A stretch of DNA of 64,000 nt from contig JAQGDQ010002383.1 in the NCBI GenBank assembly GCA_030141605.1, positions 124,001 to 188,000 of the forward strand, in the 5' to 3' direction. Origin of the DNA: Tubiluchus corallicola. Its lineage: Eukaryota; Animalia; Priapulida. This document shows, one piece after another, positions 19,752 through 56,556 of this stretch (the first letter of the stretch is position 1; every line of letters starts with the position of its first letter). Below the pieces are notes generated by a model. The model ran no database searches, was not told the DNA's origin, and worked only from the letters and a program-made list of their open reading frames with translations. The position numbers were made by a program, and so were the translations under genes.

Positions 19752-19840
19752 CTATTGTTCAATCGGAAAACTGTACTTCCTCCCAATGTTTCCTCTATTA
19801 TCCACGTCAGGCACATGAACTTCACCACTGTCCTTTTTTG
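19752..19840 (-). CDS. GPCR locus, putative terminal exon (C-tail)
   Basis: Strong acceptor ttttgtttcttttgtgtttag; phase-1 reading AKKDSGEVHVPDVDNRGNIGRKYSFPIEQ-TAG (phase-0 reading is also open, to 19700); AATAAA on minus strand at 19560-19565. Confidence 0.55.
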
Positions 19841-20579
19841 CTAAACACAAAAGAAACAAAATTATGTTTTATAAAACTTAAATTATTATTTTTAAAAATT
19901 ACACATTCCTGATACGCCATTTTCAAATTGCCAAAAATAATCTGTTAAACTAAATTTTGTTTTCTAAACTCTAGTTTGTAATAATTAATGCAACAATAAG
20001 TGTTTTTGGAATGGCCGTAAAAGTTCCTTCTATAATCTATTCGTTCAATTTAATTGAAATTTATAAAAGTAGGCATTTGCGTTTTTGTGCTCGTCAGACA
20101 TGCTTTTATAATATCATGCTGATTTTGAAAAAAATTGAATCCAAATTTTATTTTTGAAGAAAATTTGAATCCAAAAAGCAAATTTTACTTTTGCACAGGC
20201 TTCACCCACACTTTTGTGTAGCGCTTTTACTAAAACGTATTCTCGCGTTTAAAGTTGAAAAAACAAAAAAACTTAAAGCATTAAAACCAGAAAAAACGCA
20301 TAAAAATTCTCTCTACCAACGATCGAACTATGGGCCTTCAGGTCAAAAACAAATAGTCTCATAACCGCATGATTGAGCTGTGATACAGTATCGGTTTTAA
20401 ATCTTTTCAAATTTTCCTTCCTATCAAATTGTTAATTTGATTAGTGATAATTACTCTCTGTTATTTACATAGTTTTATCTTAGCTCTAATTACTTTTCAG
20501 TGCATGCAAGAAGGACATTAATTAGCACTGAATTGCGTTATTATTGCTACACAAAAATAAAAACATTCCCATACGAAAC

Positions 20580-20661
20580 CTTCAATTTTTTTCGAAACAC
20601 TGAAGCTTGTTTCAGACATGTGACCTGGTGAACGTGCTACAAAAGTACCTGTAGAACACAC
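20580..20661 (-). CDS. GPCR locus, putative C-tail exon 4
   Basis: Strong acceptor ttattttatttattatag; phase 0, matching the donor at 23593; Ser/Thr-rich VCSTGTFVARSPGHMSETSFSVSKKIE; donor either G|GTTTCG (20580) or TTC|GTATGG (20575). Confidence 0.55.
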
Positions 20662-20822
20662 CTATAATAAATAAAATAAATACGCACACGAGTTAGTTAT
20701 TTAGCAACAGTCAAGAACCGTTAGTTAAAAAATAACGAGTTAATAACAACAATTTTTAACAATAAGTTAATAACACGAATTTTCCTATCTTTACTTAAGT
20801 AAATGTTTTTCTTACGTTTTAA

Positions 20823-21506
20823 AGGACAAGAAAAGGTGTACCTGAAGCAGGTTTCAGAAAAATCGCCTTAAAAAATTATATTACTTTATAGCAATTTTAT
20901 GCCTATATCTTACTCGCACTGAAAGTAATTTTGATTTGTTTTCATTTTAAATTTCCCGCAATACTATTCCGAAGTCGCCATTACATGACGTCATGCACCA
21001 AACGTAAATCAAGGGAAGAAAAGGCAATGTTAAATTATATCTCAAAAGACTTTCCGTGCAAATCTATATTACTTAGATTTTCGCTTACCTGCTAGAGAGA
21101 TTTATGTAACTAGAAAAGAAAATTATTAATTATTTAAAATGTTTTCACCAATTGGTAAAATGTAGCTGACTCACCCTACAGGGTGCACCACTCACTAACA
21201 AAAAAACGTATTTTTAATCTTATTGACAAGACATAGTAATTTTAAATTTTATTTAGTTAGTGACTTGCGCGCTACGAATGCTCTGATTATTTTTTCAAAC
21301 TTTACAAAATGTTATCTAAACTTGTTTCAAATGACCTGTCGTGAAAATGGCTGCGTCTAACGGTCATCGCGGGAGTTTAAATTTACAGGTTTTATACAGC
21401 GTGACTGCCGATTGAAGTCCTGCATGCAAAAAGGCAGCATGTAAGCGAAACAAAATTTCAAAACGAATTTTTCAAGCTTTATGTTTATGAAGGGTTCTCT
21501 TGTGCT
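20823..21506 (+). mobile_element. Kolobok-like non-autonomous DNA transposon, family 1 (full-length copy)
   Basis: TTAA on both sides (20819-20822, 21507-21510); imperfect 12-bp TIR AGGACAAGAAAA / TTCTCTTGTGCT; homologous copies at 21560, 25722, 43793, 61950. Confidence 0.7.
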
Positions 21507-23417: not shown

Positions 23418-23467
<50 letters not shown>

Positions 23468-23592: not shown

Positions 23593-24259
23593 CTGAGTGC
23601 TATTGGTTAATCTGCCATTGTAGTATTTAGTGTTCCTGTCGTGTGGATATCGCAATTCGCCGCAGCAGCTCCTGCTTTTCAGGACAGCAATGAAACCCAA
23701 CCGGAACTTCCGGTTCAGAAATCCGTACAGGACCGGATCAATCCCACTATTCGACGTGGATATCCATTGGCATATGGGTATGAGCAGTGCCAGCTGCGCA
23801 TTGTTATCGGAGACAACTCCAAAATAAACAAACGCAAACGTCAAGTACAGTGGCAGCCAACTGAAGGCGAACACCATCACAACGACTAGGACCATTTTTG
23901 CAAGTTTGAGCTTCTGTTTTCGAACCAGCGTTTCCAAGTCACGTGTTTCACCAATCACGGGACGTCGTAAGACGTGCAGAAATATCAAGAAATAGCAAAC
24001 ACTTATGACAGCTAAGGGAACAATGTAGCACTGCAAAGCTACAACGCACAAGAAGTACCATTTTGCTGCAGCGGGATCGTGCCATCCGAATTCGCCACAA
24101 ACTGACAGTAATTGACCCTTGAATATTATATCTACGGCATCGTAATACAGCAACCAAGGAATGAAGGTCAGGCAGGAATATATCCATATAACAGCAATGA
24201 ATCGTCCCGCTGCCTTCGTCGTCATCTCATACTTCATCGGATAAACAATAGAAATGTAT
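23593..24259 (-). CDS. SIFaR: SIFamide/NPFF-receptor-like class A GPCR, cassette B exon 3B (ICL2 to helix 8)
   Basis: Acceptor atttccag, phase 2; YISIVYPMK...FIPW...CYIVPL...FAFSWLPLY...SNSGIDPVLYGFLNRKFR...SRSCCG; donor CAG|GTATTG at 23593 (unspliced read-through stops at 23560). Confidence 0.9.
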
Positions 24260-25353: not shown

Positions 25354-25453
25354 CTCTCTACAGATATGGTAGCCAGTGTGTTCACGGAAGAGGAAACGGA
25401 AACAGCTTGAAGCCAGACAACTGTTTTGCACGCCCCATCCGAGAACGGATAAC
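25354..25453 (-). CDS. SIFaR: SIFaR-like GPCR, cassette B exon 2B (ECL1-TM3, ERY motif)
   Basis: Acceptor ttcttttaaag, donor AG|GTAAGC; 100 nt, phase 1-2; YPFSDGACKTVVWLQAVSVSSSVNTLATISVE(R). Confidence 0.9.
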
Positions 25454-26226: not shown

Positions 26227-27029
26227 AAAAATTTATTATGAGGTTTTCGGTGACCGCATTGGTAATTTTATTTCATGATATGATATGATGTGATTAACAT
26301 GGTAATGTTATAGCAAAGAATGTTTTTTACTATAATGTTTACGAACTGTATTCTGTACAATAATAATTTGCTAATAAAACACGCTTCATTTCGTCAGTCA
26401 CAAAACAGTTCAGGTCGTGGCATCATCCTGAATTCTGTTTGTCAGCTAAATCGATCTAGATTCGCCCTGCGTTATGACTTTCACTTAACGCTACACAAAT
26501 AATTTACATATTTCATTATTGTTGTGACTAACCGACTGACTCAATACTATCTGAGGTTAATACAGCGCCCTTTTCGCCTAGAAATATACTGTTTTTTATT
26601 TTGTATTAATTTGCATTTAATAATGGATAAAGTTACGATGATTTTATGCATGAGATGAGTTTTCTTACTGCAGTTACAAATGTTTGCGGCCTAAAATGTT
26701 TCACTGTTTACCTGTGTTTGTCCTGCACCTCCTATTAACACCGTGTATTATTTGAAATTAATTAAGATTGAACAAAAGATGGCGCTTCTATCAAAGAATT
26801 GAAACTTGAGTAGTTTTGTTACGTTAACGCCAGTGACGCACTACAAGTCCTTTTTTGTAACTTTTGTCAGCAAACAATGATGAATTAAGAAAGAATAAAT
26901 GGCTTCCCATTCTTTGGGGCAAAAATCTTGTGCATATGTCATAGATAAGAAAAAAATTAAATGTTCAAGCAGAAAGTCAGTCTGTGTCACCAGAAAATCA
27001 TCGACTCTGCCAATCGGTTAGTAGATCAG

Positions 27030-27400
27030 CTAACCATCTACTTTTCAACCTGGTAATCGATGAACTGATCTCGAAAGTCGGTTCTCGATTTGGCTATGGG
27101 ATCGACGAATACCAAGTGGCTATAGTTGGTTTTACCGATGACCTAGTCCTAATCTCAGCCTCGAAACATGGCATGGGAGTTTTGTTGGAGACAGCCAATG
27201 GCTTCTTCACGAAACGAGGTATGACACTGAACGCCAACAAGTGCAAAGCCATGAAGCTAGTCAAGGCATACCAGCGAAAGGCTATGAAAGTGTTAATAGA
27301 GCACACATGGAAGATCTGCCAGACTCCTATTCCAATGCTGGGAGTCAGTGATACGTATAAATACCTGAGAATCCCCATGACTGCCAACCTGTCTAGTCAA
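27030..27400 (+). mobile_element. Fragment of an R2/NeSL-type (early-branching) non-LTR retrotransposon RT
   Basis: LLFNLVIDELI...VAIVGFTDDLVLIS...GMTLNANKC...YKYL; truncated on both sides. Confidence 0.75.
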
Positions 27401-29294
27401 CCAGCTGAGCAAATTTATTTATCAGAGAGTCCAAAGATATACCATTTGTGCTGGTGCAGCATGTAACCACTAGCGTGTGTAAAATTTAGAAAATCACGCT
27501 TAACTTCTGAGAAAACAAAACAATAATAACAGATATGAGATTAATACTGTTTCACTTTTATATTTCACAAATATGAACTTTCACTTCATAAACAATGACG
27601 TCAGGATTCGCCAGTTAAAATAATCCAATCCAGAAAAATGTGACACATTAATGATAAAACAGTATAGATCTTAAATGTACCACAAAAATACTGGTACTTA
27701 TGTAAGTGATTTCTAGTGATGTTGACTTTTCAGCAGTATCAGTCCTGCGTGACTTATAAATGAACAGTCAATCGCAAGGTACAATTATACGAGCTGTCAT
27801 AGAAGAAATAAACTGGGGAAATAAACCTGTTAAGCAGTAACTATGACATCAGCTACCGTTCTGTCGGTTTCTCCAATCATTGGCACCTAGTAAGAAAACT
27901 ACGTCTCTAGGAATGGCAACTTAACTTTATGATGCGTCCTTAAATGTCAATACCTTATTTTAAACTAAGTGTAAAGAAAGTGTATCAAAAAATGATGACA
28001 CTATTTGCAGCAAGATAGAAAACCAAAAATGGCAGACGGTAATAACTTTATAATTTTATAACTTTATAACCTAATTTTATAATATCAGCAGTCAATTGAC
28101 CAAGATACTCATAATGACGAAAGTTTAGTTCATACTTGATTTAATACTTTTTGCAAGCTATATTATTACTGTCTTGTGTAGGATCTAACTACAATGATAC
28201 AGAGCCATGTAGTAATGGTTTTTAATTCATTTGTTGCCAATTCCAAAACCAAGTACAACATCCGGACAAACTGCAGAGCTGATTCAGTCAAAAGAAGCTG
28301 GAAAGTATTGCAACTTTAGAATAGAGAATGCACATGAAATATTTCTTACTATCTCATGGTCACATCCCGTAGAGCAGACTAAAAATTATATCGTTAAGCA
28401 TAATCAATGAAAAACAGTGACAACATATGATACCACTAACATCAACATAGACCTAAATCAGACAGTGAGGGCAACTCAAAAAATACACTGGTCTTGAAAA
28501 TATAATTTTTCAGATTGCTTCAAACTCCATTGTGATTTATATCTTCCCTGATACCTGATAACTTAATAACAACATTCAAATATTGCACAAAGGTAACATC
28601 ACATTATATTAGATAGTGTAATATAACAGGCAGCTACAACATCGTAAAGATTGCTCATACTGCCAAGTGTTAACTAAACAGGCTACTAAACAAGCCTGCT
28701 CAATCCATCAGTTCATTTATTACAAGTACACTTCTATATTCCATACTCATTACACTAATGTGTACAATCATTTTCATTGTCAACTAACTTCAACCTAGGC
28801 AAGATCAGAAGACAATATTTGGTCACATGCTTGTCGCTACAAAATTTTCCAATCGTGAAGACAATAGCACAAGTTTCATTTGCTTTAAAATTGGTGCAAT
28901 AACATCTTTGAACTTGTGAATGTAATATAGCGTGTTTTATACAAATAGTCTGTGATTCACTTCATGACCAAGAGACCATCACAAAATTCGGCTCACATTC
29001 CAGTATCTGCAAATAGGATTATGACAAGTACACTATTTGGGAATAATTTAACAGATGTATTGGTAATCTTGGAAACTAGTCACCATTCGAGTTACAAAGC
29101 GAACACATCACACTTAGCCCGCACATTGTGCAGAAAAACGTTCTCTTGTAAATTTCTCTTCTGTTATTGTTGCTGGTAACAAAAAAGCAGCTCCGTCACA
29201 TGTAAGAAAAGTACCAAGTAGACGCCATCATGCACAACCATCAATGACACTAGCGACATGTGGAGCTGCTTTCAGAAACTCCTCTTCATTTTCT

Positions 29295-30030
29295 TCACAC
29301 ATCGTCTTTCAAAGTCGCCATACAGTAATCTACATGGGTCTGTTCAGAAACGATCCTCTGACTATTTACTGCAGATGTGGTATAGTGTCCTATCCTGTCT
29401 CCAGGATACTTCAGCTTCTTACAACAAGACCCACTCATCACTATGGCTTTGAACCCTTGCCTGTATTTTCGGTTTAAGTAGGCATAGATGCACGGATTAA
29501 TACAACTATTTGCAGTGGAAACCCACTGAAGGACGGGAACAGCGTGATTGACGTAACTTAGTGCCACGTCATCAAAACTGTTGAAGTAATAGCCGATGAA
29601 GATGGCGTACAAAGGTAGCCAAGAAATGGCGAAAATCAAGACTACCACCAGAAGCATTTTGATGACTTGGATCCGTTGGCGACGGACAATATTCTCATAC
29701 TCTCGAGCATCGCCGATTAAATCTCTTTTCCACACAGCCAAGAAAATGTTCATGTAACAAAAACTGATTGTTAAAAGTGGGGCAACATAGCAGAGGATGA
29801 AGACATTGAACAACAAATTCCACTTCATCGCGTGTTCGTACCCGTTCGGCCATTGTTCCATGCAGTAGCGTATGATTACTTGGCGATCTGCTGACGGATT
29901 ATCAGTTATTTGGAAAAAAGCAAACCATGGAATAAAAAACGCCCCGGCGCAAATCCAGATGGCAGCACAAGCTTTTCTAGCTGTCCTCAATGTCATCTGA
30001 AATTTCATTGGGTGGCAAATGGCAAAGTAT
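29295..30030 (-). CDS. SIFaR: SIFaR-like GPCR, cassette A exon 3A (ICL2 to C-terminus)
   Basis: Acceptor atttttccag, phase 2; YFAICHPMKFQMT...FIPW...CYVAPL...FAISWLPLY...ANSCINPCIYAYLNRKYR...SGSCC...KDDV-TGA. Confidence 0.92.
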
Positions 30031-30324: not shown

Positions 30325-30424
30325 CTATCAAGAGAAATTGCCACCAAAGTATACACAGATGTCGCCACCGACAAACCCTGAAGCCATGACACCAACTTGC
30401 ATGGTATCATGCCGAACTGATAAC
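30325..30424 (-). CDS. SIFaR: SIFaR-like GPCR, cassette A exon 2A (ECL1-TM3, DRY motif)
   Basis: Acceptor ttttgtattatag, donor AG|GTAAGC; 100 nt, phase 1-2; YQFGMIPCKLVSWLQGLSVATSVYTLVAISLD(R). Confidence 0.92.
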
Positions 30425-32159
30425 CTATAATACAAAACACTCATGTTATAATAATAAACTAACAAAAATATCATTATGCATAAAACGATTATGCATAATT
30501 ATACATAAATTATAACACTACATCAGCATAATTAATGTTAAACAATGCTAAACAATGTTAAACCCACAATAATTAATTAGCTATTGTCGTTGCTTATAGT
30601 TTTTGATCACATCAGTCAGTTAGGCACCTTCACAATAATTAATGTGTTTTAAAAAAATGTAAAACAAAAAGCAATTGTCACAATGCGATGTAATGTAAAA
30701 TTTATTTTAGTCGTAATTATAAGCACTGGGCAACTACATTACGACTGTAACAGTCAGTTACACAATAATAAGGCTTTCACAGTTTCGTTGTGCGCACGCG
30801 CAGTTGTTGTAGGTCGTAGGTTAAGTGTACCACAGCAACCCGTCGTATCTACAATCGTCACGTGACATGTGGGTAAAGTAAAGCCCAGTTCAGTAACGTC
30901 AGTGTTTTCGTGGACTTCACTTAACTGTGCAATAGTCTGTGCGGGATCTTGTTTGGGAACAAGAGAAAATGAATTAGAATTAATTACTAATCCAATAGCA
31001 TGGACTGCGAGGTGTGGTCAAGTGAACACAAATGCGTTGTCTGGTACATTTAACCTTTGACCTTTCCACGATCATCATCAATCGCTGGAACTGCGAAAAG
31101 GCTTATTAACTGACTGTACAAGCTACTGCTATTACTATAGCTAATGCTGCTATAACTGCTACATTACCATTGCTATATAATAAACTAATTATATTAATTA
31201 ATTAGCATAATTTAATTATTAGCAGTTTTCTGTATTAGTAATTATACCAATTAATCAGACCAACACTAGCAGTTAATTATCAGTATTATAATAATTCTCA
31301 ATTGTTAAAACCTAATAACACTTATTATTATTATAAGGCATAATAATTCCGTTTTGTGCAATACAACACACAATTTAACAATTGCAGACTTATCATCATC
31401 AAGTTTACAAAAATCATGGCATGTAAATTCCCTGCTCACAAATAAAAAATTAAACACAGTTAATCATGCTTTTGTGTTTAAATTAATTGTATTTGCGGGC
31501 GCTTAGAACTGCAAGAATGTGTTGGTGACATGCAGTCCACTGCACCTACATGCAGTTTACATGCAGACACGTGACATGCATGCGATAGTTGTTCTGAAAC
31601 GCATAATAATTAATATGACGTTGAACGTTGGAGGTCTGTTTAATTTCTCGCAGCTTCAAAATGAAGCCATTAATTAGGTCGTCATTGCAGCACGATAAGT
31701 GCTCGGTTCAGCTAGAGATAATGACTTATCTTCATTATGTTAGTACGATGTGACGAAAATTACGTGTTTATTAAGCGAAAAACCATCACGCATACCGTAG
31801 ATGTCAAAACCAGAAGTGCCCATTCTGAGAAAAGTAGGAAAAAATTATGGCAAATAATCATTTGCGGATGTCGTAGTAGCCAGTTAGTAAATGAATCAGC
31901 TACACATAGTGATGATAACTGTTTATTTGGTATAATACAAAATGTAAAGGCATAACAACTCTTTTTGCAGTAGAACTTGAGTAAACACTTTTGTATCCAA
32001 CTTATACCTGATGTAAAAACTATACAACTGATTATGTTATAAAGTCACAATGATTGTATGTTAATGCATGCCCAGTTGGTTAATGGAATAAGTAGCATAA
32101 ATATGAACAATTCTGACAATTTCTCAGTCAAAAAAGCTTTTGTCGTTTTAACTTTAACA

Positions 32160-32363
32160 CTCATAGCTAGTTTATTGGACAACAAGCGTATTTTCTGTTG
32201 GGAGGTTGCGGGTTCGATACTACGGTGGGGTAATACAAACACTTTTTACGTGGCACCTGCCTGGGTGGATTAACGATTCTGTAATGTAGCTGTAGTTGTT
32301 ATTTACAGCCGCTGATAAACGCCTAGTGTTGTCTATTGAGTTTAAAACCATCTTTAAATAAAG

Positions 32364-32446
<83 letters not shown>

Positions 32447-32483
32447 TATTACTATTATTATTACTATTATTATTATTATTATA

Positions 32484-32556
<73 letters not shown>
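32160..32556 (+). mobile_element. tRNA-derived SINE with expanded (TTA)n tail
   Basis: tagctagtt...ggttcgatac head; AATAAAg followed by about 190 bp of (TTA)n (32364-32556). Confidence 0.6.
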
Positions 32557-32557
<1 letters not shown>

Positions 32558-38821: not shown

Positions 38822-38851
38822 GATGATGACGACGATGGTGATATAATAATA

Positions 38852-38900
<49 letters not shown>

Positions 38901-38958
38901 CGATGATGATGACGACGACGACGATGATAATGATGATGATGATGATGATGATGATAAC
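38822..38958. repeat. (GAT/GAC)n microsatellite
   Basis: Direct inspection. Confidence 0.9.
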
Positions 38959-39210: not shown

Positions 39211-39760
<550 letters not shown>

Positions 39761-40619: not shown

Positions 40620-41157
40620 AGGAAGACAGGATGATTTTTCATATACCACCCCATTTTCAAGTCTGATAAAACGTGTACATTTTAACACAATTAATACTGC
40701 AAAAGCGTTTCTGATAATTAAATAATAGATTAAAAACTTAGATCCCAACTATTGATGACAGACACAAACTAACATAATTTTCAACAACAAAAATATTCGA
40801 CGAGCGTGTTGCACGTGTTGGCGAAAGCGAAAATTGAACTGCAGTACTACCGTAAGATATTCAGAATTTCAAATTTACCGTTGTGCTCACGCATGAGCTG
40901 TCGAACGTGTGTAGTTCGTCACAAACTAACACATCTGAACTGAGAGGTACAGCACCTGTTTTTGTGCAATGCGTTTCTAAAATGCAGGCGCTAGTGCCTC
41001 TCTAACTAGCGAATGGCGAAATGCGTGTAACAGCGAAGAACTAGTATCAAAAATGTGAAATTGTGTTTGTGTTGTAATAACTCTAGTACGTTTCCTTTCA
41101 ATATTTTAAAGAATAGACTATTTTGACCTACAGTTTAAGATTGGGTCCGAATTTGCT
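40620..41157 (+). mobile_element. TTAA-flanked non-autonomous DNA transposon, family 2 (Kolobok-like)
   Basis: Starts ttaa|AGG; shares aggatgatttttcatat...gcgtttctgataat...gcatgagct with 63713-64000; ends ...gct|ttaa near 41160. Confidence 0.55.
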
Positions 41158-42249: not shown

Positions 42250-42580
42250 TCTCCCTGCTCGCCGCAGTGCCCCAAGTGCATTTATTTCTAAGGATCAATG
42301 CTGAAGTGTTTAAATCTTTCTGTGCAAAATCTAAATATGTTAACATTTGTCCCCTGCAGGTTTTTTAGCTGGTTCTATGGCTTGTTGAAGAGCTATCTTC
42401 ACTGGAATATCATCAGGTAGTCTAAACATATGCCCAATCCATCTTAAACGGCGTCTTTTTATTTTTCTTGTCCAAGGTTCTTCTTTTATTTTTTTCATAT
42501 AGATCTTTGTTTGAAATTTTCTTTGGCCATCTAATACCCAAAATGTTTCTGTAATTTCGCCTTTGAAACACATCGATTTC
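42250..42580 (-). mobile_element. RTE-type LINE ORF2 3' fragment
   Basis: Frameshifted FQRRNYRNILGIRWPKKISNKDLYE / IKRRRLRWIGHMFRLPDDIPVKIAL, characteristic of the RTE C-terminus. Confidence 0.8.
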
Positions 42581-43792
42581 AAAATACGGCCACTCTTTCA
42601 CTGCGCCAAAACAATGGTACAAATCTTTTTGATTGCCGAAAGTCACTAAATCACTCACATTCAACTCAATTTATTCACACCTATTGTGAACTGAAATATA
42701 CGTAAAATAAATAAAAATACATAGGATGTTTAAAAAATAAAGATATAGTGTTAGTTTCTTGCTTGAAATAGGTTTCAATTGCTTCTATTCGTGTTTCCGG
42801 AAGCTTAGTGCGTTTTCATTTCATTTGATAAGTAAAAGTATGTAAATATGTTAAAAAAAACTCATTTCTGGTATTTACTGGTTTCGATACAGTAAGTTTA
42901 TACAGCCAAATTCGCTTGTGCAATTGAATAGAATTGATTCACGCGATTTCACGTTGTATATCACGCAATAAAAACTGTTTGTTTTGTCATTTATCTTGTA
43001 TGTCTGAAATTGTTTCAACAAATTTTAAATCTCCATCAGAGCATACATTAATCAAAACGTCAAGGACCAATTATAGAAGTATTTACACTCTAAATCATCA
43101 TCATCATATGCCCATTACGTCTATTGTGTCTCTATTGCAGAACTCTAAAATAAAAGAAATCTTCTCTCAAGACAGGTAAACGCAGCAGTAATCAAGCAAA
43201 AAACTAGATACTGCTATGCCAGTGACTTGTCAGTGATCGAAATAACACAATATGGAATATCTTCAAAATACTGAAATGGAAAAGCTTTATTGATTTGTTA
43301 CTTTTTGAACGCTCTGCCTTTATCACAACTCGATGACTTTAGCCAATCAAAACAAAGTCATTTTCTCATAACTAATAAAAAGAATAAATTCATGTCCAGG
43401 ACGTTTTGCGCGTCTGAAACGACGCAGGCAGTTTTGCAAGACGTTTTAATACTTTTCCTCCTTTGAAGTCCGTCTCCTGTGGAATTTATAGTTCGCTTAA
43501 TTGAGAAGTTGTTTGTATATGGTCTGCATACTGTAATAAATTTCCTTATTCAACTAAACTCCATGTTAAATTGTTTCGCAATTTCTACTAGCGCAGCATC
43601 AAAATAAATTGCGTATATTTTTTGCACGTACAATAATTCAAGAGAGTTGCAGCGTCGTTATATTTCTGCATGAGGAATTCATCTAAACAGATAAGTATTA
43701 GAACGCAATTTATGCGGTGAAATTGTTTACATCTTATAACTTTAATCGTCGTCGCCATCGCCGCCACAAGAGATGCCAAAGAAGAGCGCACA

Positions 43793-44165
43793 AAGGGGAA
43801 GAAAGGGGAATTTTGAAGTATATCTCAAAGAACTTTCCACATAAAGTTTTATAACTTAGCATTACACTTACCTGTTTGAAACATTTATTATGTAACTAGA
43901 AAAGAGAAAAACTAGAAAATAATTTAAAATGTTCGCGCCAACTGGTAAAACGTCACTCCAGTGTGTATCGCTGATTCACTAGAAACGCATTACAGATTTT
44001 ATTAGCAAGATAAAGTAATTTATACTTTAGCTTAGTTAGCAAAGAATATGTTACAAATGGCTAGATTATTTTTACAAACTTCACGCAGTGTTATCTAAAC
44101 CTGTTTCAAATGACTTTTTTTAAATGGGTGTTTATATTTACAAGTTTTACTAAGCGTTACTGCTA
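43793..44165 (+). mobile_element. Kolobok-like family 1, partial copy
   Basis: Aligns to 21011-21410 (atgtaactagaaaag, tgttatctaaac.tgtttcaaatgac). Confidence 0.75.
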
Positions 44166-44430
44166 ACACTTAGTAATTTCTTCTTCTCCCTTCCTTCTTC
44201 CTATCCCTAATCTTACTATTTTTTCCATTCCATCATGTCTACTAACCCTAACCATTCTTTCGTTCACTCATTTGTGCCACCTTAACAAGCCAAGCTTTCA
44301 AGGTGTCATACGGCAACTCTTTTATTTGGTTAATTTGACTTCATCAACGCTTTTTTACCTATACTGTTTCTTTTTGTTTCAATAATATTGCATGTTGATG
44401 TATTGTATATGTATTGCTGGAGTGAAATAA

Positions 44431-44536
<106 letters not shown>

Positions 44537-45205
44537 CACAAGCTCTGTTTACAATAATATAGCATGTAGGTGATACAAAATTACAAGACTAATTCTTTAA
44601 CCTTTATTTCTGAAAAGTGTTTTCTTATGCTTTAAATAACCGTTTCCAACGTTTGACCGCACGCTAAGCATGACAGGTTTGATGAAACGTAAGGCTTCCG
44701 CCAAGGTATAAAATTTAAGAAAATTAATCATCACTGAAAACCAATTCGACTAAAGGTTCTAAAATTTTATTAAAACTGATGAGATGTTGAACTAATTGAA
44801 AAAGGGGAACACATATAAATGTTCACCGCTATCTAATAGACTTCTGAAACAACTAAAAACTTCACAAGCTTCCCTGTTACGGGCGTCACGTGACAGTCTG
44901 TACTTGTTACTTGCATGATATGATGACGTTCACGGTGACATTCGTCGACAAGCACTGAACCGAACGTGTGCTTACAGACATCCCATAACTAAAGCCCTGA
45001 GGAGCTCGCAAATTCTGAATTAAAGTATATATACGTATTTGGCAGGAAAACGAAAAATTTTTGCAAACTATAAACCGCATTCAGTGAATTTGCAAAATAC
45101 TGCAGCTTTCTTTGATACTTATTTAAGACCCATCAGACTTTCTGTTTTCATTATATATTTATTTATTTATTTATTCATTCACTCATTTATTTATTTATTT
45201 ATCGG

Positions 45206-45400
<195 letters not shown>

Positions 45401-45483
45401 ACATTTGTTTATTTATTTACTATTTTATTTATACTTTTAAACTAGTTTCCGAAGCTGGCAGGTCTTTCAAAAGAATAAACAGA

Positions 45484-45700
45484 AATAGCTCAATCGGCTG
45501 CAAGCTGTTTTTCCATGTCGAAGGTTGCCGGTTCAATTCCGCGTTTAGCAGTTAGCTTAAAGCAGTTAGAAATAAAAACAATGTTTACTGGAACTTTCTT
45601 CATGTATTGAACAAACAGGGTCAAGTTTCTGCAACACAGAAAAAAGGTTAACTCCACCCAGCGAATATAACGACGCATATATGCTTCACCCAGGTATATC
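45484..45700 (+). mobile_element. tRNA-derived SINE
   Basis: A box tagctcaatcgg, B box ggttcaattcc; downstream aactccacccag core-like motif. Confidence 0.5.
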
Positions 45701-46857
45701 AGCCCGTCGGCTACATAGTGAGACGGGGAGATGGAGACATTAACCCAGACAATCTAGAACCTGTAGTTGCTCAATGGCTGGAACCATGTACTCTGTGTGT
45801 GTCATATAATCGCTCATCTTAGACAACTACCTAAATATTCTGACATCGACACATCATCGCTGACATCAATATTAGCACATAATGATACCGCTAAACAAGT
45901 GGAAAATGTACATAGATGTTCGTTGTTATTTAGTTTAAAAATAATTTATTATAGGATTGGATCAGACAGTTTGAACAACATTATTTAGGATCCTCATCAC
46001 AACAGACTTTATACACTATTTACAAAAACATTTACAGTAAGAATAGACTATAACTACACAAGCTGACAAGTTTTACTACAAGATTACATTAGACATTAGT
46101 AGAAAATGACGGTTAGAAAATATTAATGTACGAATATTTAAGACTGATGCATTTCATATCAGATAGAAACTACTGGAAGCGTTTAGTACGTAATATAAAG
46201 TCATGTAGGCATTGGAATATTGTACAGTTAGCAACATAGTTAAGTTCATCTTTTCCGAATAATAACAATTTCAACAGATCATTAGTTCCTAAGGCAGCTA
46301 TATTAAGGTTGTCGGGCAGAAGTTGCTATTTCAGCGAATGCCTTTGTATATTTAGACATACGAAAACTATTTTGCATTACTATTGTATAATATTGCTGCG
46401 TATAATAGTACTTGCATTTTGCTAAAAGTGTTTTTTAATATGCACCCAGTTTGCATTTACGTGACGTCACTGATGTAGCAGTAAGGAACATGCCTTGTTA
46501 CGAACTTCTTACAGCTACCTTGCAATTTGTAATTTTATTATAATTTTGTTGGTCAATAAATTACATACATACGTAGGTAAGTGACGCCCGCAGCATTTTT
46601 GATACGCCACAAATTGCGTAACGTGCAATTTGCGCATGTACATTAAGTGCATTACTAAAATAACGCAAATGGATTATAAGGTAATTTCGATGCCATTTAT
46701 GGCAAAACAGAAAGCCTATGCTTGCGGCAGGCTAGTGTTAACAATTTTGAAGTAATTCGACGTAAAATTTTAACATTTATGAAAATGTCGGTCTAATTAA
46801 CTTAATTTATACAAGCGAACAAAAACATAACTTGAGGAAATGAGTTAAAGTGTTAAT

Positions 46858-47082
<225 letters not shown>

Positions 47083-50000
47083 ACTTTTAAAACAGCAATC
47101 CGTTTTCAAAACACAAAAATTAAAAACAAAATCACAATTATTGTACATTAAGTTGTTTGTCTTTAAAACATTTGAAAGATCACGTTTCGTAAACAACAAC
47201 ACTGCGCATTACAGTCAAACTACACTGAATTAAACTAGACGCATCGACGCATGCACACTGCCATCTGTTTGAATACGTAATTTCGCGTGCAATTTAGATT
47301 TTGTTTTGGAAGATTTTGCAAAAAAAGTTTCTAAAATATTGCTAAATTAAACGCCTCTGGGTCTGTTTTTGCCAGCGCAGACTCAAGGTCTTAAAATGGC
47401 TGGCTTAAAATGTGACTAGGACAAGAACAAACTAATTGGCAAAACTTGAAAAGGTTGGGCAACTAAACTTACACAGCTTATAACACTCAAGGGAAATAAA
47501 AATTTTGGAGGGATGCTCGGTGACCTATGGTGGGTCAGTCAGGGTGGTAGTTGTTGGCTGCTTAAACTACAGGTGTTTGAAACTGAGTTACATAATAAAG
47601 TGTGTAGAGATTTAATACACGCCTCTAAATTGGTCACTCCAAGTGAGTGGGCGCGGCTGACAGAAGCCAAAATGTAAAATAAGGAGTCACAGGTTCGATG
47701 ACCTGTTAAGAAATTACCAGCAGCCAAATTTTTGTTTTACAAAGTAGATACCTGAGGGCATTCTTATAGTAAACAGAGATTCTATCGAATAACGTTTAGA
47801 ATTCAATAAGTAATTAAACAATGTTCAAGTCAGTTGACGGAGAAAGAAAAAACTTCAGAGACATTATACTGGGAGCCGACTAGGGCACAGATCCTAAATT
47901 TTAGACTAAGCTTTTCAACATGTCTGTGAGCAGAATCCGCCAGTCTTATTTAAACGAACCAACTGAGATTGCACCAGCAAATGGTGCATTATTACATATG
48001 TACCAGCGAAATTACATGTTCTCTTAGCAGAATTAGCCAGTTTTATTTAAAAGAACCAACCGAAATGCACCGACAAATTTGCAAAACATGCCGACACAAG
48101 AAAATGGGTTAACAGAAAAGACATTTTTGACGTAAGCATACAGCTCGAAGACTTTGGGAGTCTGGAAAAGAGTTTCATAACCTATATTGGATAACTTATA
48201 AATCATATTCCTGGTGGCAATTGCCCGAAATGATACGTTGACGGTCGGTAATTTGGACAATACAAACGTCAAATATAATAAAAATGAAGTGGATAAATAC
48301 ATCAAAGTTTTATGGAGTAGAAAAATACAACATGTAAACCAGTAGACCGGTAATCCGCAAGAGATAATTCCTGTGTGGCTTAGAAAATAATGACATTCGG
48401 ACCATTTACAGAAAGAGAGACACTAATGTATATAGATATTGTAAAAGAACTAACCCAAAATGATCTTATAGTAAACTGATTATACAGGATACTGTGTTAT
48501 ATACGAATGACATTAGCTTAACATTATTTATGTATGTAGAAGCTACAACATATACTATTTGTACATACAGTATAACATGTATAAACAATGTACGCAATTA
48601 TTAGATATATAATTAGAATTAATAAATCATAATGCAGTATTGTTAGCTTGTTTAGTAAGAAATTGTAACTGTGAAGAATTTAATGTAAAAATTTATTCAA
48701 TGTACATAATGTAAAGATTCATTTAACATTTTTGTACTTATGTGCCCTGCAAATAGCGGGCTTATTGTATCATTTTCAATAAAGATTTTTAATAATAATA
48801 ATAATAACAATAATAATAATTCCTGGTGGGGGACACTTTCAGCAGGTCAACCAGCAACTTTTAGTTTGTGATTAAAAGTCAAAGGCCAATTCGCAAAATT
48901 ACATCTCAAACACTAGAGGAATAAAGTTCAAAACTTAATAGTATTAAGCAACAGATTAGTGTGAGGACAGATTATAGAAGGAATCCCCGGCAGCACTGAA
49001 TGTGTGATTGAGTTCAAAAGCTAATTTCTCAACTGACAAATAGCTTAAACAGTAACGAAAACTCAACATGTGGAATAAAAGCAAGCCAATTAATAAGTAA
49101 ATTGACGCGACGAAAATGTTAACGCCCTTCACTTGCAAGCCTTTGAGTTTCGTACAGTCTATCTGTGACGCTGCAGGACAGTGTCTTGCAACCCAGATCT
49201 ATTTACTTCATTATTACCTGAACAAAATGTCGCAGGTTGTATTTAAGTACAGTGATCGGAAACATGCATTGCCGAATTTTGATGATTAATCGCTAAAATA
49301 ATTTTTGCTTGAATTAACGACTATGAATCCACTATGAGCTCATTGATTTGCCCTCACTGCCCCAAGTTTTTTTTAAATCAATTTGTGAAACGCAATGCTT
49401 CCTCGCTTTCCAGGTGCTAAACTCTGACCGTATAACAGACGTACAAACAAAGTCTTTTTCAACATTTTATTCGCGAAATATCACAATTACAACTTACGGG
49501 CAAAGGCTCGTGTTGCACAAGCTAAAGTTTTTAATCCTTTGGAGCTTAACGACACCACATTATTCAAAACTTAATAATGTTATTGAGCGCATAGCTGTGT
49601 TGTTTGAATACAATAGTATAGCACTATTACTCTTCCCTCCATTTTGCAAAAAAATCTTTGAGAGGCACAATAAATGCAAGTTTAAAGCAGCGCAGAAAAC
49701 ATTTTTTAAATTTAAGCTCAAATGAGTCTGCTGTAATTGGCGTAAATTTAGCGTAAAATTGCTGAGATACATAATTACGGCACACGTTATAGACTGAACT
49801 ATCACTACATACAGTGCAACACTAATGTTAGAAAATTTTCTATTAAATACAATGGAATTCAATTGCTCCAGCTATTAAAAATGCCAACTCGCTGCCCATA
49901 TTTAAAAAAATTTATAAATTAAACTTACTTGAAACGTATAACTGATCACTCAATCATGATTTGTTGTTTTTCATTTTCAAAAACTTCCCCTCTAGTATAA

Positions 50001-50779
50001 TAATATTTTTATTACTTCCCACCCGTATTTATATTTGTATATATTGTAATATTGTATCTGTATATATTGTAATTTTTTCGTAACTAATTCTAGTGGCCTA
50101 CCATAAGCTAGCTTCTTAGGTCTCTAGCGCAGAATTCATGAATTGTATCATAAGTTTGTATTAACAAAAACTGATTATCGATGCACATGTAATGTATATG
50201 TATATGTTTATTGCGAAATAAATCTATTAAATCTAAAAAAAATCTGACCAGTTGCATTTTATCTGTGTTTTATCACATACGCGTGTGCATTGTTAAGTAC
50301 GTATGAGATACCCGTGACGACCGCCAAAACGAACACAGCTTGTTTCACCTGCACAAAGCTTTTCATTATGGCATGGTATTTTAAATATGGTCTGGTTATC
50401 AGTAATATCTACATTTGGCACCCAATCATGTGTTTCGTTCAGTCAGTGCTGCTTTAAATCTAGGAAGCCACAACAACAACGGAGCAATAATCATTTAACT
50501 AACCGAAGTCTAATACATTCTGAAATGTAGCAGTTTAACTGCTGCCAGCGTTTAACCTTTTCCAAACTTAAATCATTTAATCCAGGCCATTATCCCGGGC
50601 CACAAATTTCCATCTTTATTGCTCGCCGCATAATAACCGCCTAACACCTCACGACAATTTATGTAAAATATAAGCCGGTGCCGACATTTCCGTTTGTGAG
50701 CACTATGCTGTGTTTTGTTGCTATGCTGTAATGGCTGATGCAGTCTGTTCAGCTTGAGAAGGGGGATTGGGGAGCAGTG

Positions 50780-51017
<238 letters not shown>

Positions 51018-51101
51018 AAAGCAGATATACCATTTTGTTTTCACAATAACACGTATAAAATAGACTAAACATGACCCATAAGTCCGAAGCGGTGTTTTAT
51101 C

Positions 51102-51378
51102 CAGTGCCGTATTCACACTTGGTGAGGATATAAGCACTATATAAGGCTCTGAGGCCCTCTTTTTTTAAATTTCGCCAATTGGTCCCAGAAAACTTGAAAA
51201 TATGCGTGGCTTAATTATTTATAGCAAAGAGAACAATACACTTGACTAAAACATTACTAAATTATTACTTAAATATAAAAATGGGTATAAAACCCAATCT
51301 GGAACCTTGTTGAGGCCCCATGTAGATTGTGAGGCCCTAAGCTGTCGCTTACTCAGCTGATACCTAAACCCGGCGCAG
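51102..51378. mobile_element. hAT-like MITE (CAGGGCCGGA-related family)
   Basis: Perfect 8-bp TSD gttttatc (51094-51101 and 51379-51386); decayed TIRs CAGTGCCG / CGGCGCAG; subterminal gaggccc repeats. Confidence 0.75.
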
Positions 51379-53779
51379 GTTTTATCTTAGTCAGGCAAGT
51401 GATTAGTACGCATTCAACAAACGTGGGTGAATGCTAAGTTTGATCCCCTTGTGTTACATAACAGGAAATAAAAGTTTTGCTTATGAAATTTTTACAAATT
51501 ACAGCAGGGTTCCAGAATTGGTCAGCTTCGACTTTAGAGGTCAAACAGATCATTCGGGAGGTCTAAAGTAGGTTTAAAAGAGGGTCGAAAACTGACATTC
51601 GTATAGAAAATAAAAATACATAAAATACTAAGATAAAATATAATTTGTTTATACATTAATGCCTAACTCATATATAATCATAATTCATAAGTCTTGATTA
51701 TCTATTTATTTTATATTCAGTTTGCTAGTACACAATGATATCCATATTATGTTGTTATTATTATGGTAATAATTTATGATTAATTGGAACCAAAAGGCAA
51801 TGGACCGTTATAGTACCAATGTTTCTATATTTGGATAAATTGACTTACATTTTCTTTCCCTTTATCGTGTTCTATTATTTAAAAGACTCGATGTAATCAT
51901 CATCAACACTGAAATCTTTTGATATTTGAAATTTTTTTAGTTCATTTTACTTCAAAACTGGGTTGTGGCAACGTTAGATAGAGTGTCCCGGGCTTCCTAG
52001 TTACTTCATTTCCTGTCCTATTCACTTACGTCATTTCCTAGTTACGTCACTTCCTGTCCTACTCACTTACGCCAGATTTCATGAGGAGGTCGGTGGTTTA
52101 AAGAGTTTGGTTTTCTAAACTACAGGCTGCCAGTGAGTTGACTATTTCAAATACATCGCTTTATATGAAGTCAGATGTCATTTGAAGATCACTGATGACA
52201 ATTGGATATATTCACAAAATTAGCAGCAAGCTTGTAAAAAATTCTCAAGAATTATGAAAAAAAATTTGGTCTATCATCCAGCATGGAAGCAGGCATGCGC
52301 TATTTTTCTTGCGCTTGTAGTATTAGTCAGTCCAACACTCGCATTTGTATTAGGATTCATAATGATGAAATTTGAGAAAAGCAATATATGTAAAGTACAC
52401 ACAAATGAAACTTTGATGAAAATGCTGATAGGAGTAATATTATATGAAAGTCTAACGTCCGCGAGTCTACTTAGGGACACCCAATTGCCCTTGGACAGTT
52501 TCATAAAGCAAAATATATCGTTTAACTGCAGGCAGCGGTTTTACGCATTATTAACTTTCTCCTCCTTCTCTGCTTTCTCCTCTTCTTCTGTGTCTCTTTT
52601 AAGGGCGTATAAACATAGTCAAACTCCAAGTGTTCAGCAGAACTCGGGAAACTTTTGATTGGCCCCTAAAGTGGTATTTTTGTACGGTAATTTAGTTATT
52701 TGCTCAAAATATACAGAAAAATTTACGCACGAAAAGAACATACGTACAAAACATATTCTGTATCTAAGTCAACATTTTTATTACGCTAGGTCTAACAACA
52801 GACAGCGAGTGCAAGTCTCCCCTTGGTGCTGCGGGCTGCCGTATCGGCTTTTAGTTATCCATATGCAACGGAATATTTTTCTGTTTCAAGACAAGTTTAT
52901 ACAGTTTCAAGACAAACTTTTATTGCTTGGAAACAGTTTGTACTTTGGAAGTTTAGAAGTGGGACTTTGCTTGCTTTGTTAAATTTAAGTTTGTTCTGAA
53001 ATTAAATGTTTGTAGTGGATTAGCGTGCCCTCGTAAGACAAGGACAACATTTATTTGCTGTCGCTTGTTTAATAGACAACACTTGCACTAACAGTTATTT
53101 AGCGGCTTATACTTAAAACAATATGGATAAGGACACTTAAACACGAATATGTAGGGTATGTGCCCTGACATTGGTAGCCGGTAGTCTCGAACTCAAGACT
53201 GCATGTCCGAAATCTAGACCAGTCGGCCAACCAACCCAAGACAATGCTGCTACGTCAATTATTACTTCGGGTCTTCCTTAAATTTTTTCCAACTTCTAAT
53301 TTCTGAACACTCCGTTCAAGACTAGAATAATCTCCTCTCGATAAGAAGTTGACCAACAAGCACTTTCCACGATTTTTCGGGCGCCATAATTCAGTAAGCT
53401 CGCAAGACCATAAAAAACTTTTAGCGTCAAGTTTCAGCTTCTGTTTGCAAACAATATTATTTCTGAAAAATTGTATTCATCTTATTTAATCTTGCATAAT
53501 CCTCGACAAATTTCGTTGAGCCACTTCATAAAATAATCCTTGCTAAATCCGCCGATATTCTTTCACGGCGATCAACAGCAATCTTTCTGTCGTCATTAGT
53601 GGGTTCTTACTGCACAATAACTTTTTCATAGCGGATTATCAGAATGAATGTGATTGGAGCTTCCTCTGATTAGCAAAGGGAAGTCTTCCATTCTTTATGA
53701 GTGTTTGTTGTCGTGCAATCATTGACTACTGCAGAGATTATGCAAAGAAAACTTAGCCTGGTGGATAAGAGTAGAATTT

Positions 53780-54155
53780 ATCATCATCATCATCATCATC
53801 ATCTACATCATCATCATCATCATCACCATCACCATCATCATCATCATCATCACCATCATTGTCATCGTCACCATCGTCGTCGTCATCGTCGTTTTCATCA
53901 TCATCATCAACAACATCACCATCATCATTACATCGTCGTCGTCATCGTCGTTTTCATTATCATTATCATTGTCGTCGTCGTCGTCATCATCATCATCATC
54001 CTCATCACCATTATCGTCATGATCATGATCATGATGATGATCATCATCACCATCATTGTCATCGTCATCATCGTCGTCGTCATCGTCGTTTTCATCATCA
54101 TCATCGTCATCATCATCATCATCAACATCACCATCACCATTACATCGTCATCGTT
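53780..54155. repeat. (CAT/CGT/CAC)n compound microsatellite
   Basis: Direct inspection. Confidence 0.95.
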
Positions 54156-55747
54156 ATTTCGCGTCGTCACTATTGTTTTCGTCACTTCTCAGAACATTAT
54201 TCCCCTATAGTTATAATATTGCTATAATACGCAAAACCGTCTTACAACAACTATACCTCCTTCATTCTTTTTTCATCCTTCAAACATCAACATCACTCAC
54301 CAATGTTTTCATCGTCGTCGTCGTCGTCGGTAGCTCATTGTCGATGTCATCTGTTCTTGTTATCATTGCCAGTAACTTTGTCTGTTTTTAATCTACCCTT
54401 TGCTAGTTTGGTTTTGTTTTATGACGCAGATTTGCACGTTTATAGAAATACAATCTAGACGAGCGCATCCCTTCTCATTAAATGCAACACTTAGAGAGAA
54501 ATGTGCTGGTAAATTGTTTCTAAACAACCCTAATTGTTGAGTTGAACAAACATTAAAAGCCTTGTAGGTAAAGGCGAAATTACTTGCATTTGCACAATTA
54601 TTTTAACATACAAACTACATGTATTTTTACAAGCAAATGAAAAAAAATTGTAATCAAATCTTATCTCTGGCCTTCAGGTGTGAAAATAAATTGATAAAGT
54701 GGGTGTTATGGTGGCCATAAGAACGGAAGAAACGTGATAATGGTAAAGGTACTTTCACATGCATACAGAATGTGCTGCGATGATGTCGATCGGGCAGACG
54801 ATTATTCACTTGTTTCGTTGGAAGTACATTCCGTAAAAATATGAAAGCACCTTTAGTTATTATATAGTCAGAAATTTATTTTATCGTAAAAATAAGCTTC
54901 GATGAGATTGCTGTATTACAAAGAAAGTTCTTAGAAAACAAAAATATTGCCGCATGAAATAAATGTAATATCGCGCAACAAAACAAAGTTGCCAACGAAA
55001 GTGTTTTAAATAATTATCTGATAAAAGTAAACAAGTTACTATTGGATGAAGCTTGAAATATTGTCTAAAACAAATACTAGGCATCATTTCGAATTTCGAA
55101 TAATGCTGGAAAAATATGCAGGTCACGACAAGTGATCGTCACAACAGAATGTGCTTTTTCTGTTTTTTTTTCACTGAAAACTCAACAGTTATTTTAATTA
55201 GAATAAAACGATAATAGTCTTTAAAAACAAATTACCAAAAAGCTCCCTTCGCTTGTAAGCCTATAATTTCTCCAATGGGCTTTCTTGATTTTTTTCGGTG
55301 AATTTTTTCAACCAATCACCATTCTTACTGGGTAATGAGCTTGAGCTCTTACAAATTAGAAAAGTTTCACAAGAGTTCACTGCTGTACCTGAAGATTATA
55401 GTCCCTATACGACGTCCTCATAACATTAATTTTAAATACGTAATTGTTAAATTATTATTTAAAGATAGTCACGTGTGTCTCTTCTTTCCCATTATTGAAC
55501 ATTATTTTATTATAAACTAACACATTCGTACAATAATTCAATTTTCATTCGTCTTAAATGCAAAATTTGATAATTTTTAATTACCTGGTACATGCGCATT
55601 AACTAATTAATTATATTAGTAACAATTCTTACCTATGTTAGGGTGCAATGAACAATTCACCTTACAATAAGGCTACAGATGAATCTGCCATTGGCTCTAT
55701 TTTAGTGTTTAAAATGAATGATTACCGTTAGAAGTGTGCATACTTAC

Positions 55748-56018
55748 TTGCAAATAAACTATTGACTAGATTAAAAGGTAAACAGAAGAGCAACACCAAT
55801 ATGTCCGCCGCCGCAAGGTTAGCAATGAAAAGATTGGTAACGTTCCACATGTGTGGACTTCGAATCACCACAGCTAACACAAAACTGTTTCCAACCACTC
55901 CCACAATGAACACTATCACGTACGCCATTGTTAGAAACACTATTTCCCAGTTATGGTCCAATTTTAGCTCCGTGCTGTAGGATAAGTTAGTTCTCGATAT
56001 ATCGGTGGAATTCGACAT
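55748..56018 (-). CDS. SIFaR: SIFaR-like GPCR, single first coding exon (N-terminus, TM1, TM2)
   Basis: [15 protein letters not shown]...[59 protein letters not shown]; phase-1 donor A|GTAAGT; upstream acceptor ttcttttcttatag at 56132 implies a further 5' UTR exon. Confidence 0.92.
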
Positions 56019-56556
56019 GTTTTGGAATAATATGGTCGCCAGTAAAAGCAAATTAACGTTCAGCGTCCACTGAAGTATGACTGCTGCCGCTAGCCACTGG
56101 TGATTAATGAAGAGACTGGTCCTTCAGGTCACTATAAGAAAAGAAAAGAACTTCGTAAAGAAGAATTTTGATTTTTTACAGCTTCCTACTAGATAAAAAC
56201 TAGGAAAAATATTTATTAATGGTAAATGACATTAACATTATCGCGATTAACATTATCGTTTATTTTCATAAGCAGTTGTGTAATGCATCTTATATTATGT
56301 ACGTATAAATAATGTAATGTACATACCCTCATAACGTTTCTTGTATATATTTCTTGCATATACAATATATATTGTATATATATACAGGGCCTAGTATATT
56401 TTTCACGGTCATAAACTCTAACCTCACTATCAACAACAATGCAAAAGGTAAAGAACAATGTTGATATCGATCCCTTCCCCAATTCTACCTAGCCAATCAC
56501 AAGACAGGTCACGTGACTTTCACAGAAATTATACCTGGTTCTACATTATACATAAT

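What the first reader, a model, noticed from the sequence alone, without database searches (positions are those of the whole stretch)
19752..56131. One neuropeptide-GPCR N-terminal exon shared by two diverged TM3-TM7 exon cassettes: a modular multi-receptor gene
Seen: on the minus strand the order is exon 1 (N-term, TM1, TM2; 55748-56018), a 25-kb intron, exons 2A and 3A, then exons 2B and 3B. Exons 2A and 2B are both exactly 100 nt with phase 1-2, and 3A and 3B both start in phase 2. Both cassettes therefore splice in frame onto the same exon 1 (LFA-S-YQFG or LFA-S-YPFS). The 3.8 kb between 3A and 2B holds a UTR-like tract, an R2-like RT fragment and a MITE. No TM1-TM2 ORF is found there or anywhere else in the window. 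The cassettes are only roughly 40% identical by eye, yet both are free of stops and frameshifts, which suggests an old duplication kept by selection. Established: the motifs match SIFamide/NPFF-type class A receptors, where TM3-TM7 and ECL2/3 form most of the ligand pocket and G-protein interface. Inference: one promoter and N-terminus yield two pharmacologically distinct receptors (A 368 aa; B about 402 aa) through alternative two-exon cassettes, which is unusual for a GPCR.
Basis: partly seen in the sequence, partly recalled or inferred. Interest (0 to 1): 0.85.

Follow-up and report, generated by a model that had tools for sequence, protein, structure and literature searches.

The report
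One receptor head, two swappable bodies
This marine-invertebrate gene has one exon for the first two membrane helices of a neuropeptide receptor, followed by two intact, 45%-identical sets of exons for the other five helices, so it likely makes two different receptors from one gene, a larger version of a splicing trick known from the insect ecdysis-hormone receptor.

Summary
The anatomy is confirmed: one TM1-TM2 exon, then two in-phase, stop-free two-exon cassettes (TM3 to C-tail) that are 45% identical. No second TM1-TM2 exon lies in the window (profile search: 88 bits against 4.3 for the next hit).

Both cassettes look constrained. In a diverged DNA run, exon 3B aligns over 418 nt with 38 differences and no gaps, and exon 2A also aligns, while flanking non-coding DNA aligns only in patches. 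Both fall in a SIFamide-receptor-like clade with Priapulus proteins (99/97). The Priapulus model nearest cassette B carries a TM2 end that matches exon 1 better than 134 other relatives do.

No RNA junction read could be obtained, so splicing of exon 1 to each cassette is inferred (about 0.7). A hybrid (TM3 from A, rest from B) is also in frame.

The design has precedent: insect ETHR-A/B and Drosophila OAMB swap alternative last exons. What differs is the earlier branch point (after TM2, about 75% of the protein), the two-exon cassettes, and the receptor family and lineage. B's last two exons and any pharmacological difference are unverified. The scan had not noted this gene before, but noted a mirror layout in another genome.

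The parts
55748..56131 (-). Exon 1: 5' UTR from an AG acceptor (56131), ATG at 56018, N-terminus, TM1, TM2; ends phase 1. The only TM1-TM2 segment in the window. The acceptor implies a further upstream non-coding exon that was not located.
   Evidence: (7tm_1 positions 1-46)
30425..55747 (-). 25.3-kb intron rich in microsatellites and interspersed repeats; no TM1-TM2 remnant; continuity not tested with reads
30325..30424 (-). Exon 2A (100 nt, phase 1-2): ECL1, TM3 with the disulfide Cys, start of DRY
   Evidence: conserved in run X5 (30316-30440, 6 differences in 125 nt)
29295..30030 (-). Exon 3A coding part: ICL2 to TM7 (NPxxY), helix 8, C-tail, stop; terminal exon
   Evidence: one contig of run X6 (RNA is a guess) on 29265-29344
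28716..29294 (-). Candidate 3' UTR of cassette A, ending at the first AATAAA (28721-28716); patches of it align in diverged run X5
   Evidence: signal list; piece 28898-29051 and joint to 28737; use as a poly(A) site is inferred
26945..27466 (+). Retroelement reverse-transcriptase fragment between the cassettes
   Evidence: RVT_1, E 3.9e-9; raised depth
25647..26196 (.). High-copy MITE-like repeat; related copies at 21104-21917, 43817-44115, 44561-44626, 62157-62558
25354..25453 (-). Exon 2B (100 nt, phase 1-2): ECL1, TM3 with the disulfide Cys, start of ERY
   Evidence: not covered by the diverged run
23593..24259 (-). Exon 3B: ICL2 to TM7 (DPxxY variant), helix 8; GT donor at 23592, or read-through to a stop at 23560
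   Evidence: conserved without gaps in run X5 over 418 nt
20580..20661 (-). Candidate exon 4B (C-tail), unverified
   Evidence: in frame, AG acceptor, weak donor; no homology or read support
19752..19840 (-). Candidate exon 5B (C-tail and stop), unverified
   Evidence: in frame; AATAAA at 19565; no homology or read support

Best explanation
One TM1-TM2 exon sits upstream of two intact, in-phase TM3-to-tail cassettes of a SIFamide-receptor-like GPCR, and it is likely spliced to either cassette as alternative last-exon blocks, which would give two receptors with the same first 90 residues and different remaining three quarters. Shown: the exon layout, phases, open frames and the absence of another TM1-TM2 exon in the window. 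Inferred origin: an old tandem duplication with one break in intron 1 and the other downstream of exon 3. Inferred choice: splicing to 2A-3A and cleavage at A's own poly(A) site gives receptor A (368 aa); skipping A and reading through that site gives receptor B (356 or 402 aa). Splicing 2A to 3B would give a third, hybrid receptor, while 2A-2B or loss of exon 2 shifts the frame. Predicted result: the products differ in most of the peptide pocket and in ICL2, ICL3 and the tail, and so probably in ligand sensitivity or G-protein coupling, as ETHR-A/B and OAMB isoforms do.
For: Phases and open frames. Single TM1-TM2 exon. Codon-position identity between cassettes of 53/66/35%, and 8 of 37 fourfold third positions alike: old divergence under protein constraint. 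Diverged run X5: exon 3B contigs align over 214 of 216 and 204 of 209 nt with 21 and 17 differences and no gaps; exon 2A aligns with 6 differences in 125 nt; main pieces of three contigs that are wholly or mostly non-coding align over only 135 of 473, 139 of 496 and 125 of 705 nt. A contig of run X6 covers the end of 3A, and its two listed changes fall in one Leu codon and keep Leu. Priapulus XP_014677779 (P0136), nearest to B in the tree (87/80), matches exon 1 at 7 of the 10 residues after the TM2 proline; the next of 135 relatives matches 5, and the other Priapulus paralog 2. DNA contigs tile 25251-30802 except for two repeats. Precedent: PMC8175484, PMC8291126, PMC2650798 (passages).
Against: No RNA contig crossed either exon-1 junction or any intron; the one RNA-like run is small and diverged. 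Exon 2B and most of 3A were not covered by the diverged run, and its individual changes in 3B were not listed, so no dN/dS could be computed. B has DPxxY where none of 276 stored relatives does (194 have NPxxY), which could mean relaxed constraint. Run X2 alone shows a two-base difference in 3B that would change Val to Arg; X1 (same sample) and X3 do not show it. Listed contigs do not bridge 25646-26030 or 27071-27322, and the 25-kb intron was not tested. No genome was available to search beyond the window. Orthology of A and B to separate relatives is only moderately supported: A+B as sisters is not rejected (AU p 0.063; with P0134 p 0.20), and P0136 resembles A at the TM6-TM7 outer ends.
Confidence: 0.7

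Rival explanations
1. Cassette B belongs to a second gene with its own TM1-TM2 exon. That exon is either lost in an assembly error at one of the repeats, or lies upstream beyond the window so that gene A is nested in B's first intron.
For: Two repeats between the cassettes are not bridged by listed contigs, and the 25-kb intron is unchecked. Only 8 kb upstream of exon 1 is in view and no genome is held. Priapulus has at least two separate genes of this group with different TM2 ends.
Against: The unbridged repeats are only 385 and 252 nt, and all unique DNA between 3A and 2B is covered by contigs of the source sample. A nested same-strand gene needs a more complex history than one tandem duplication (inference). 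Exon 1 is the type found on the B-like Priapulus model.
Confidence: 0.13
2. Only one cassette is used. The other, most likely B, is a recently silenced leftover that has not yet decayed.
For: No transcript evidence for B. DPxxY is unique among 276 relatives. B's tail exons are uncertain. The 2B acceptor has several upstream AGs.
Against: Exon 3B is about 91% identical and gap-free over 418 nt in a lineage whose non-coding DNA aligns only in patches at 80%. All splice sites and both frames are intact after synonymous saturation between cassettes.
Confidence: 0.1
3. Cassette B is transcribed from an internal promoter as a truncated four- or five-helix product that modulates receptor A, or that pairs with a separate TM1-TM2 piece.
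For: Exon 3B has an in-frame Met near its start. Truncated GPCR isoforms exist in other families (own knowledge, recalled).
Against: Exon 2B keeps exactly the length, phase, acceptor and TM3 Cys needed to join a phase-1 upstream exon. No promoter evidence was found or tested.
Confidence: 0.05

Closest known systems
Insect ecdysis-triggering hormone receptor, ETHR-A / ETHR-B (Bombyx: PMC8175484; Anopheles: PMC8291126; passages read)
   Same: One class A neuropeptide GPCR gene with common 5' exons and mutually alternative, homologous 3' exons. The Anopheles isoforms are 43.4% identical and differ 28- to 320-fold in ligand sensitivity.
   Different: ETHR swaps one exon from the end of TM4 onward (about 60% of the protein in Bombyx). 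Here the swap starts after TM2 (about 75%), each cassette has two or more exons, a hybrid is in frame, and the family is SIFamide-receptor-like. ETHR isoforms are shown by cDNA; these are not.
Drosophila octopamine receptor OAMB-K3 / OAMB-AS (PMC2650798, passages read)
   Same: Alternative last exons give two receptors with different signalling (Ca2+ only, or Ca2+ and cAMP).
   Different: An amine receptor; the swap starts at the third cytoplasmic loop.
Priapulus caudatus NPFFR1-like XP_014677779.1 (P0136) and NPFFR2-like XP_014672862.1 (P0001), predicted models
   Same: Same clade as both cassettes (99/97). XP_014677779 has an exon-1-like TM2 end and a body nearest B.
   Different: Only 37-45% identical over exon 3. 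Each is a single-member cluster with no alternative isoform seen. Their gene layout could not be read.
Arthropod SIFamide receptors (Drosophila CG10823 orthologs) and vertebrate NPFF receptors
   Same: Sister group in the tree (91/91). About 35-43% identity over exon 3. NPFFR2 and orexin receptors are the best solved relatives. SIFamide-NPFF orthology is stated in PMC5818035 (passage).
   Different: No cassette duplication for this family turned up in my searches. Both cassettes lack the basic residues at the outer end of TM6 seen in the two arthropod receptors displayed.

Membership tests
Class A (rhodopsin-like) GPCR | 7tm_1 domain covering TM1-TM7 | tested here: met
   Exon 1 matches profile positions 1-46; exons 3A and 3B match 84-260; all above the curated cut-off. 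Exons 2A and 2B align to the TM3 of P0001.
Class A (rhodopsin-like) GPCR | TM3 Cys with ECL2 Cys, D/ERY, TM6 WxP | tested here: met
   Present in both predicted products: DRY in A, ERY in B.
Class A (rhodopsin-like) GPCR | TM7 NPxxY | tested here: inconclusive
   Met in A. B has DPxxY, a variant I recall from other class A receptors but found in 0 of 276 stored relatives.
SIFamide / NPFF-type receptor | Phylogenetic placement with SIFamide receptors | tested here: met
   Inside an 18-row SIFamide-receptor-like clade (95/94), sister to arthropod SIFaRs (91/91, not starred), against CCKR, QRFPR and other outgroups; vertebrate NPFFRs were not in the tree.
SIFamide / NPFF-type receptor | Activation by SIFamide- or FF-type peptides | not testable with these tools
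   Needs a cell assay.
ETHR-type alternative-last-exon GPCR gene (design) | Shared 5' coding exon and duplicated, homologous, same-phase 3' exons | tested here: met
   limited to the window.
ETHR-type alternative-last-exon GPCR gene (design) | Both spliced transcripts exist | tested here: inconclusive
   No listed RNA holder; no junction-spanning contig in 6 of 6 runs laid.
ETHR-type alternative-last-exon GPCR gene (design) | Isoforms differ in ligand sensitivity or expression | not testable with these tools
   Inferred only from 45% identity over the pocket and loops.
ETH receptor (orthology) | Closest relatives are ETH / PRXamide-type receptors | tested here: not met
   Named nearest relatives are SIFaR- and NPFFR-like. 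Neuromedin-U receptor ranks far below NPFFR and orexin receptors for 3B. No ETHR sequence was placed in the tree.

The most novel reading that the evidence does not exclude
An ancient priapulid-lineage SIFamide-receptor gene builds up to three receptors (A, B and an A-TM3/B-body hybrid) on one TM1-TM2 scaffold. That scaffold must pack with two five-helix bodies as different as separate paralogs, making it a natural chimera experiment with the largest cassette swap that I could find described for a GPCR, conserved across the phylum.
Probability: 0.3. Interest if true: 0.7.

Novelty: new variant of a known kind. Interest (0 to 1): 0.5.

Why it matters
If both junctions are real, a second, independent lineage has evolved the ETHR design in another receptor family, and with an earlier branch point. 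That would show that TM1-TM2 can serve two bodies only 45% alike. It would give a natural pair for assigning ligand selectivity and G-protein coupling to TM3-TM7. It also warns that gene counts of neuropeptide receptors in little-studied ecdysozoans miss receptors hidden as cassettes.

Tried and rejected
No RNA holder was listed for 23500-30500; this is not evidence on expression. Six runs were laid and none gave a contig across an intron or onto exon 1. X3, X4 and X5 behave as DNA.

No whole genome is held, so nothing beyond the window was searched. A metagenome scan gave 57 loci, none close (best segment at most 41%), and 0 of 57 held two TM6 segments.

A search for Priapulus isoforms sharing the N-terminus of XP_014672862 found none among the 120 listed of 220 hits. 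An exon-1 search for longer proteins gave 6 unnamed hits.

An RNA-pairing model for cassette choice was considered. Repeat copies flank cassette A in opposite orientation (25886-26196 with 43817-44115, 70%; 25648-25712 with 44561-44626, 85%). They are high-copy, internally symmetric elements, and the longest inverted repeats were microsatellites or within one element, so I give this no weight. Rfam found only two tRNA-like hits.

No intron similarity remains between the cassettes; only one 51-nt coding match was found. The first, 70-row tree finished only in quick mode and left the group unresolved; the 23-row careful tree is the one used. No structure was predicted, because the spliced proteins are not contiguous in the DNA.

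Literature searches showed no report of this gene or of a duplicated TM3-TM7 cassette in SIFamide/NPFF receptors (listings only; the library lacks most subscription journals). PMC6585902 and PMC3510462 passages added nothing beyond ETHR. No supplements were read.
Full report
Observation. Exon 1 codes from 56018 to 55748 and ends in phase 1 at a GTAAGT donor. Exons 2A (30325-30424) and 2B (25354-25453) are each 100 nt between AG and GT. Exons 3A (29295-30030) and 3B (23593-24259) each begin in phase 2. Exon 1-2A-3A gives 368 aa. Exon 1-2B-3B is open and gives 402 aa with two further candidate exons, or 356 aa by read-through; those two tail exons have no other support. Using both 2A and 2B, or neither, shifts the frame. 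Pfam 7tm_1 matches exon 1 at profile positions 1-46 and each exon 3 at 84-260.

Is there a second TM1-TM2 exon? Not in the window. tblastn with exon 1 and three full-length relatives finds only exon 1. A profile from 140 homologs, exon 1 left out, scores exon 1 at 88.1 bits and the next place at 4.3 bits, with nothing above -1.0 on the minus strand between 3A and 2B. Listed contigs of the source sample and a second sample cover 25251-25645, 26031-27070 and 27323-30802, the last as one 3,480-nt contig with one difference. Two repeats, a MITE-like element and an RT fragment, are not bridged by listed pieces. The 25-kb intron and the DNA beyond the window could not be checked.

Are both cassettes maintained? 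The bodies share 112 of 248 aligned residues. Nucleotide identity by codon position is 53, 66 and 35%, and 8 of 37 fourfold sites agree, so the duplication is old and was shaped by protein constraint. Run X5 is DNA filed under the same species label but clearly diverged. Two of its contigs lie on exon 3B over almost their full length (214 of 216 nt, 21 differences; 204 of 209 nt, 17 differences; no gaps). One 705-nt contig has its main match on exon 2A and its edges (125 nt, 6 differences). Two non-coding contigs have main matches of only 135 of 473 and 139 of 496 nt. X5 is shallow and did not cover 2B or 3A, and its single changes in 3B were not listed, so this shows constraint by contrast only. 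Run X6, guessed to be RNA, has one 189-nt contig whose first 80 nt match the end of 3A with 6 differences; the two listed fall in one Leu codon and keep Leu. Two points go the other way. B has DPxxY where 0 of 276 stored relatives do. Run X2 alone shows a two-base difference in 3B that would change Val to Arg; it is absent from X1 of the same sample and from X3.

Family and lineage. The best database hit of 3A is Priapulus caudatus XP_014672862 at 39%. In a careful 23-row tree of the TM3-TM7 bodies (21 of the 276 stored proteins, chosen to span the hits), A, B, two Priapulus models and three unnamed Logan proteins form one clade (99/97). That clade is sister to arthropod SIFamide receptors (91/91) within a SIFamide-receptor-like group (95/94). 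A pairs with P0134 (94/93) and B with P0133 and XP_014677779 (87/80). A+B as sisters is not rejected (p 0.063), nor A+B+P0134 (p 0.20), while A with P0133 and XP_014677779 is rejected (p 0.011). So the duplication is old, but whether it predates the split from Priapulus is open. XP_014677779 keeps the end of TM2, and there it matches exon 1 at 7 of 10 variable residues, the best of 135 relatives with the motif; XP_014672862 matches 2. A predicted model in another species thus joins an exon-1-type TM2 to a B-type body. This weakens the idea that B needs a different first exon, but it rests on ten residues of a gene prediction.

Mechanism. The simplest history is one tandem duplication with breaks in intron 1 and beyond exon 3 (inference). 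Because 3A ends in a stop and is followed by an AATAAA at 28721 in a stretch that still aligns in X5, the choice is likely between alternative last-exon blocks. Stopping at A's site would give A; skipping 2A-3A and reading on would give B. The products would share 90 residues and differ from ECL1 onward, including most of the peptide pocket and the G-protein-facing loops (established class A anatomy; best solved relatives are orexin, NPFF and substance-P receptors). None of 6 runs laid gave a junction, so splicing is inferred, at about 0.7.

Comparison with what is known. [quoted passage not shown] The Anopheles isoforms are 43.4% identical and differ 28- to 320-fold in sensitivity (PMC8291126, passages). 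Drosophila OAMB-K3 and -AS differ by the last exon from the third loop onward (PMC2650798, passages). This gene works like those but is not an ETHR ortholog. It differs by branching after TM2, by multi-exon cassettes with a possible hybrid, and by family and lineage. Searches showed no report of it or of such a cassette in SIFamide/NPFF receptors. The scan's own notes list other duplicated-exon genes in this genome and a mirror layout, two first exons on one body, in an arthropod receptor (unchecked).

Verdict. A real and probably functional two-cassette GPCR gene; a new variant of a known design; interest 0.5, limited by precedent and by the lack of transcript evidence.

Noticed in passing
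window 12416-13062 and about 14060-14170, minus strand: Two exons of a likely single-pass membrane protein: a hydrophobic helix with a basic stop-transfer stretch ending at a GT donor, and a long last exon with two PPxY-like motifs. No Pfam match for the last exon.
   Followed up: partly
window 9436-9726, plus strand: Short Cys-rich open frame that resembles a Ly6/three-finger ectodomain piece (resemblance recalled); no Pfam match.
   Followed up: partly
window 6150-7559, minus strand: 469-aa LINE-type reverse-transcriptase frame (RVT_1, E 4.4e-21).
   Followed up: partly
window 3840-3913 and 22584-22655, minus strand: Two tRNA-like Rfam hits (61.5 and 31.3 bits). The weak one lies in the intron after 3B beside another tRNA-like stretch near 22770-22835 and may be a SINE head.
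   Followed up: no
window 11787-12445, 24718-24991, 56570-56765: Tandem repeats of 66, 92 and 16/32 nt; the last lies about 450 nt upstream of exon 1's acceptor.
   Followed up: no
P0001, P0014, P0133, P0134, P0136: The SIFamide-receptor lineage appears expanded into at least three body types in this priapulid-containing clade. The four members with that position (A, B, P0001, P0136) have Tyr where arthropod receptors have the ECL1 Trp.
   Followed up: partly
runs X5 and X6: Runs filed under the same species label differ by about 5-10% in exons and far more in non-coding DNA, which suggests a cryptic species or distant population.
   Followed up: no
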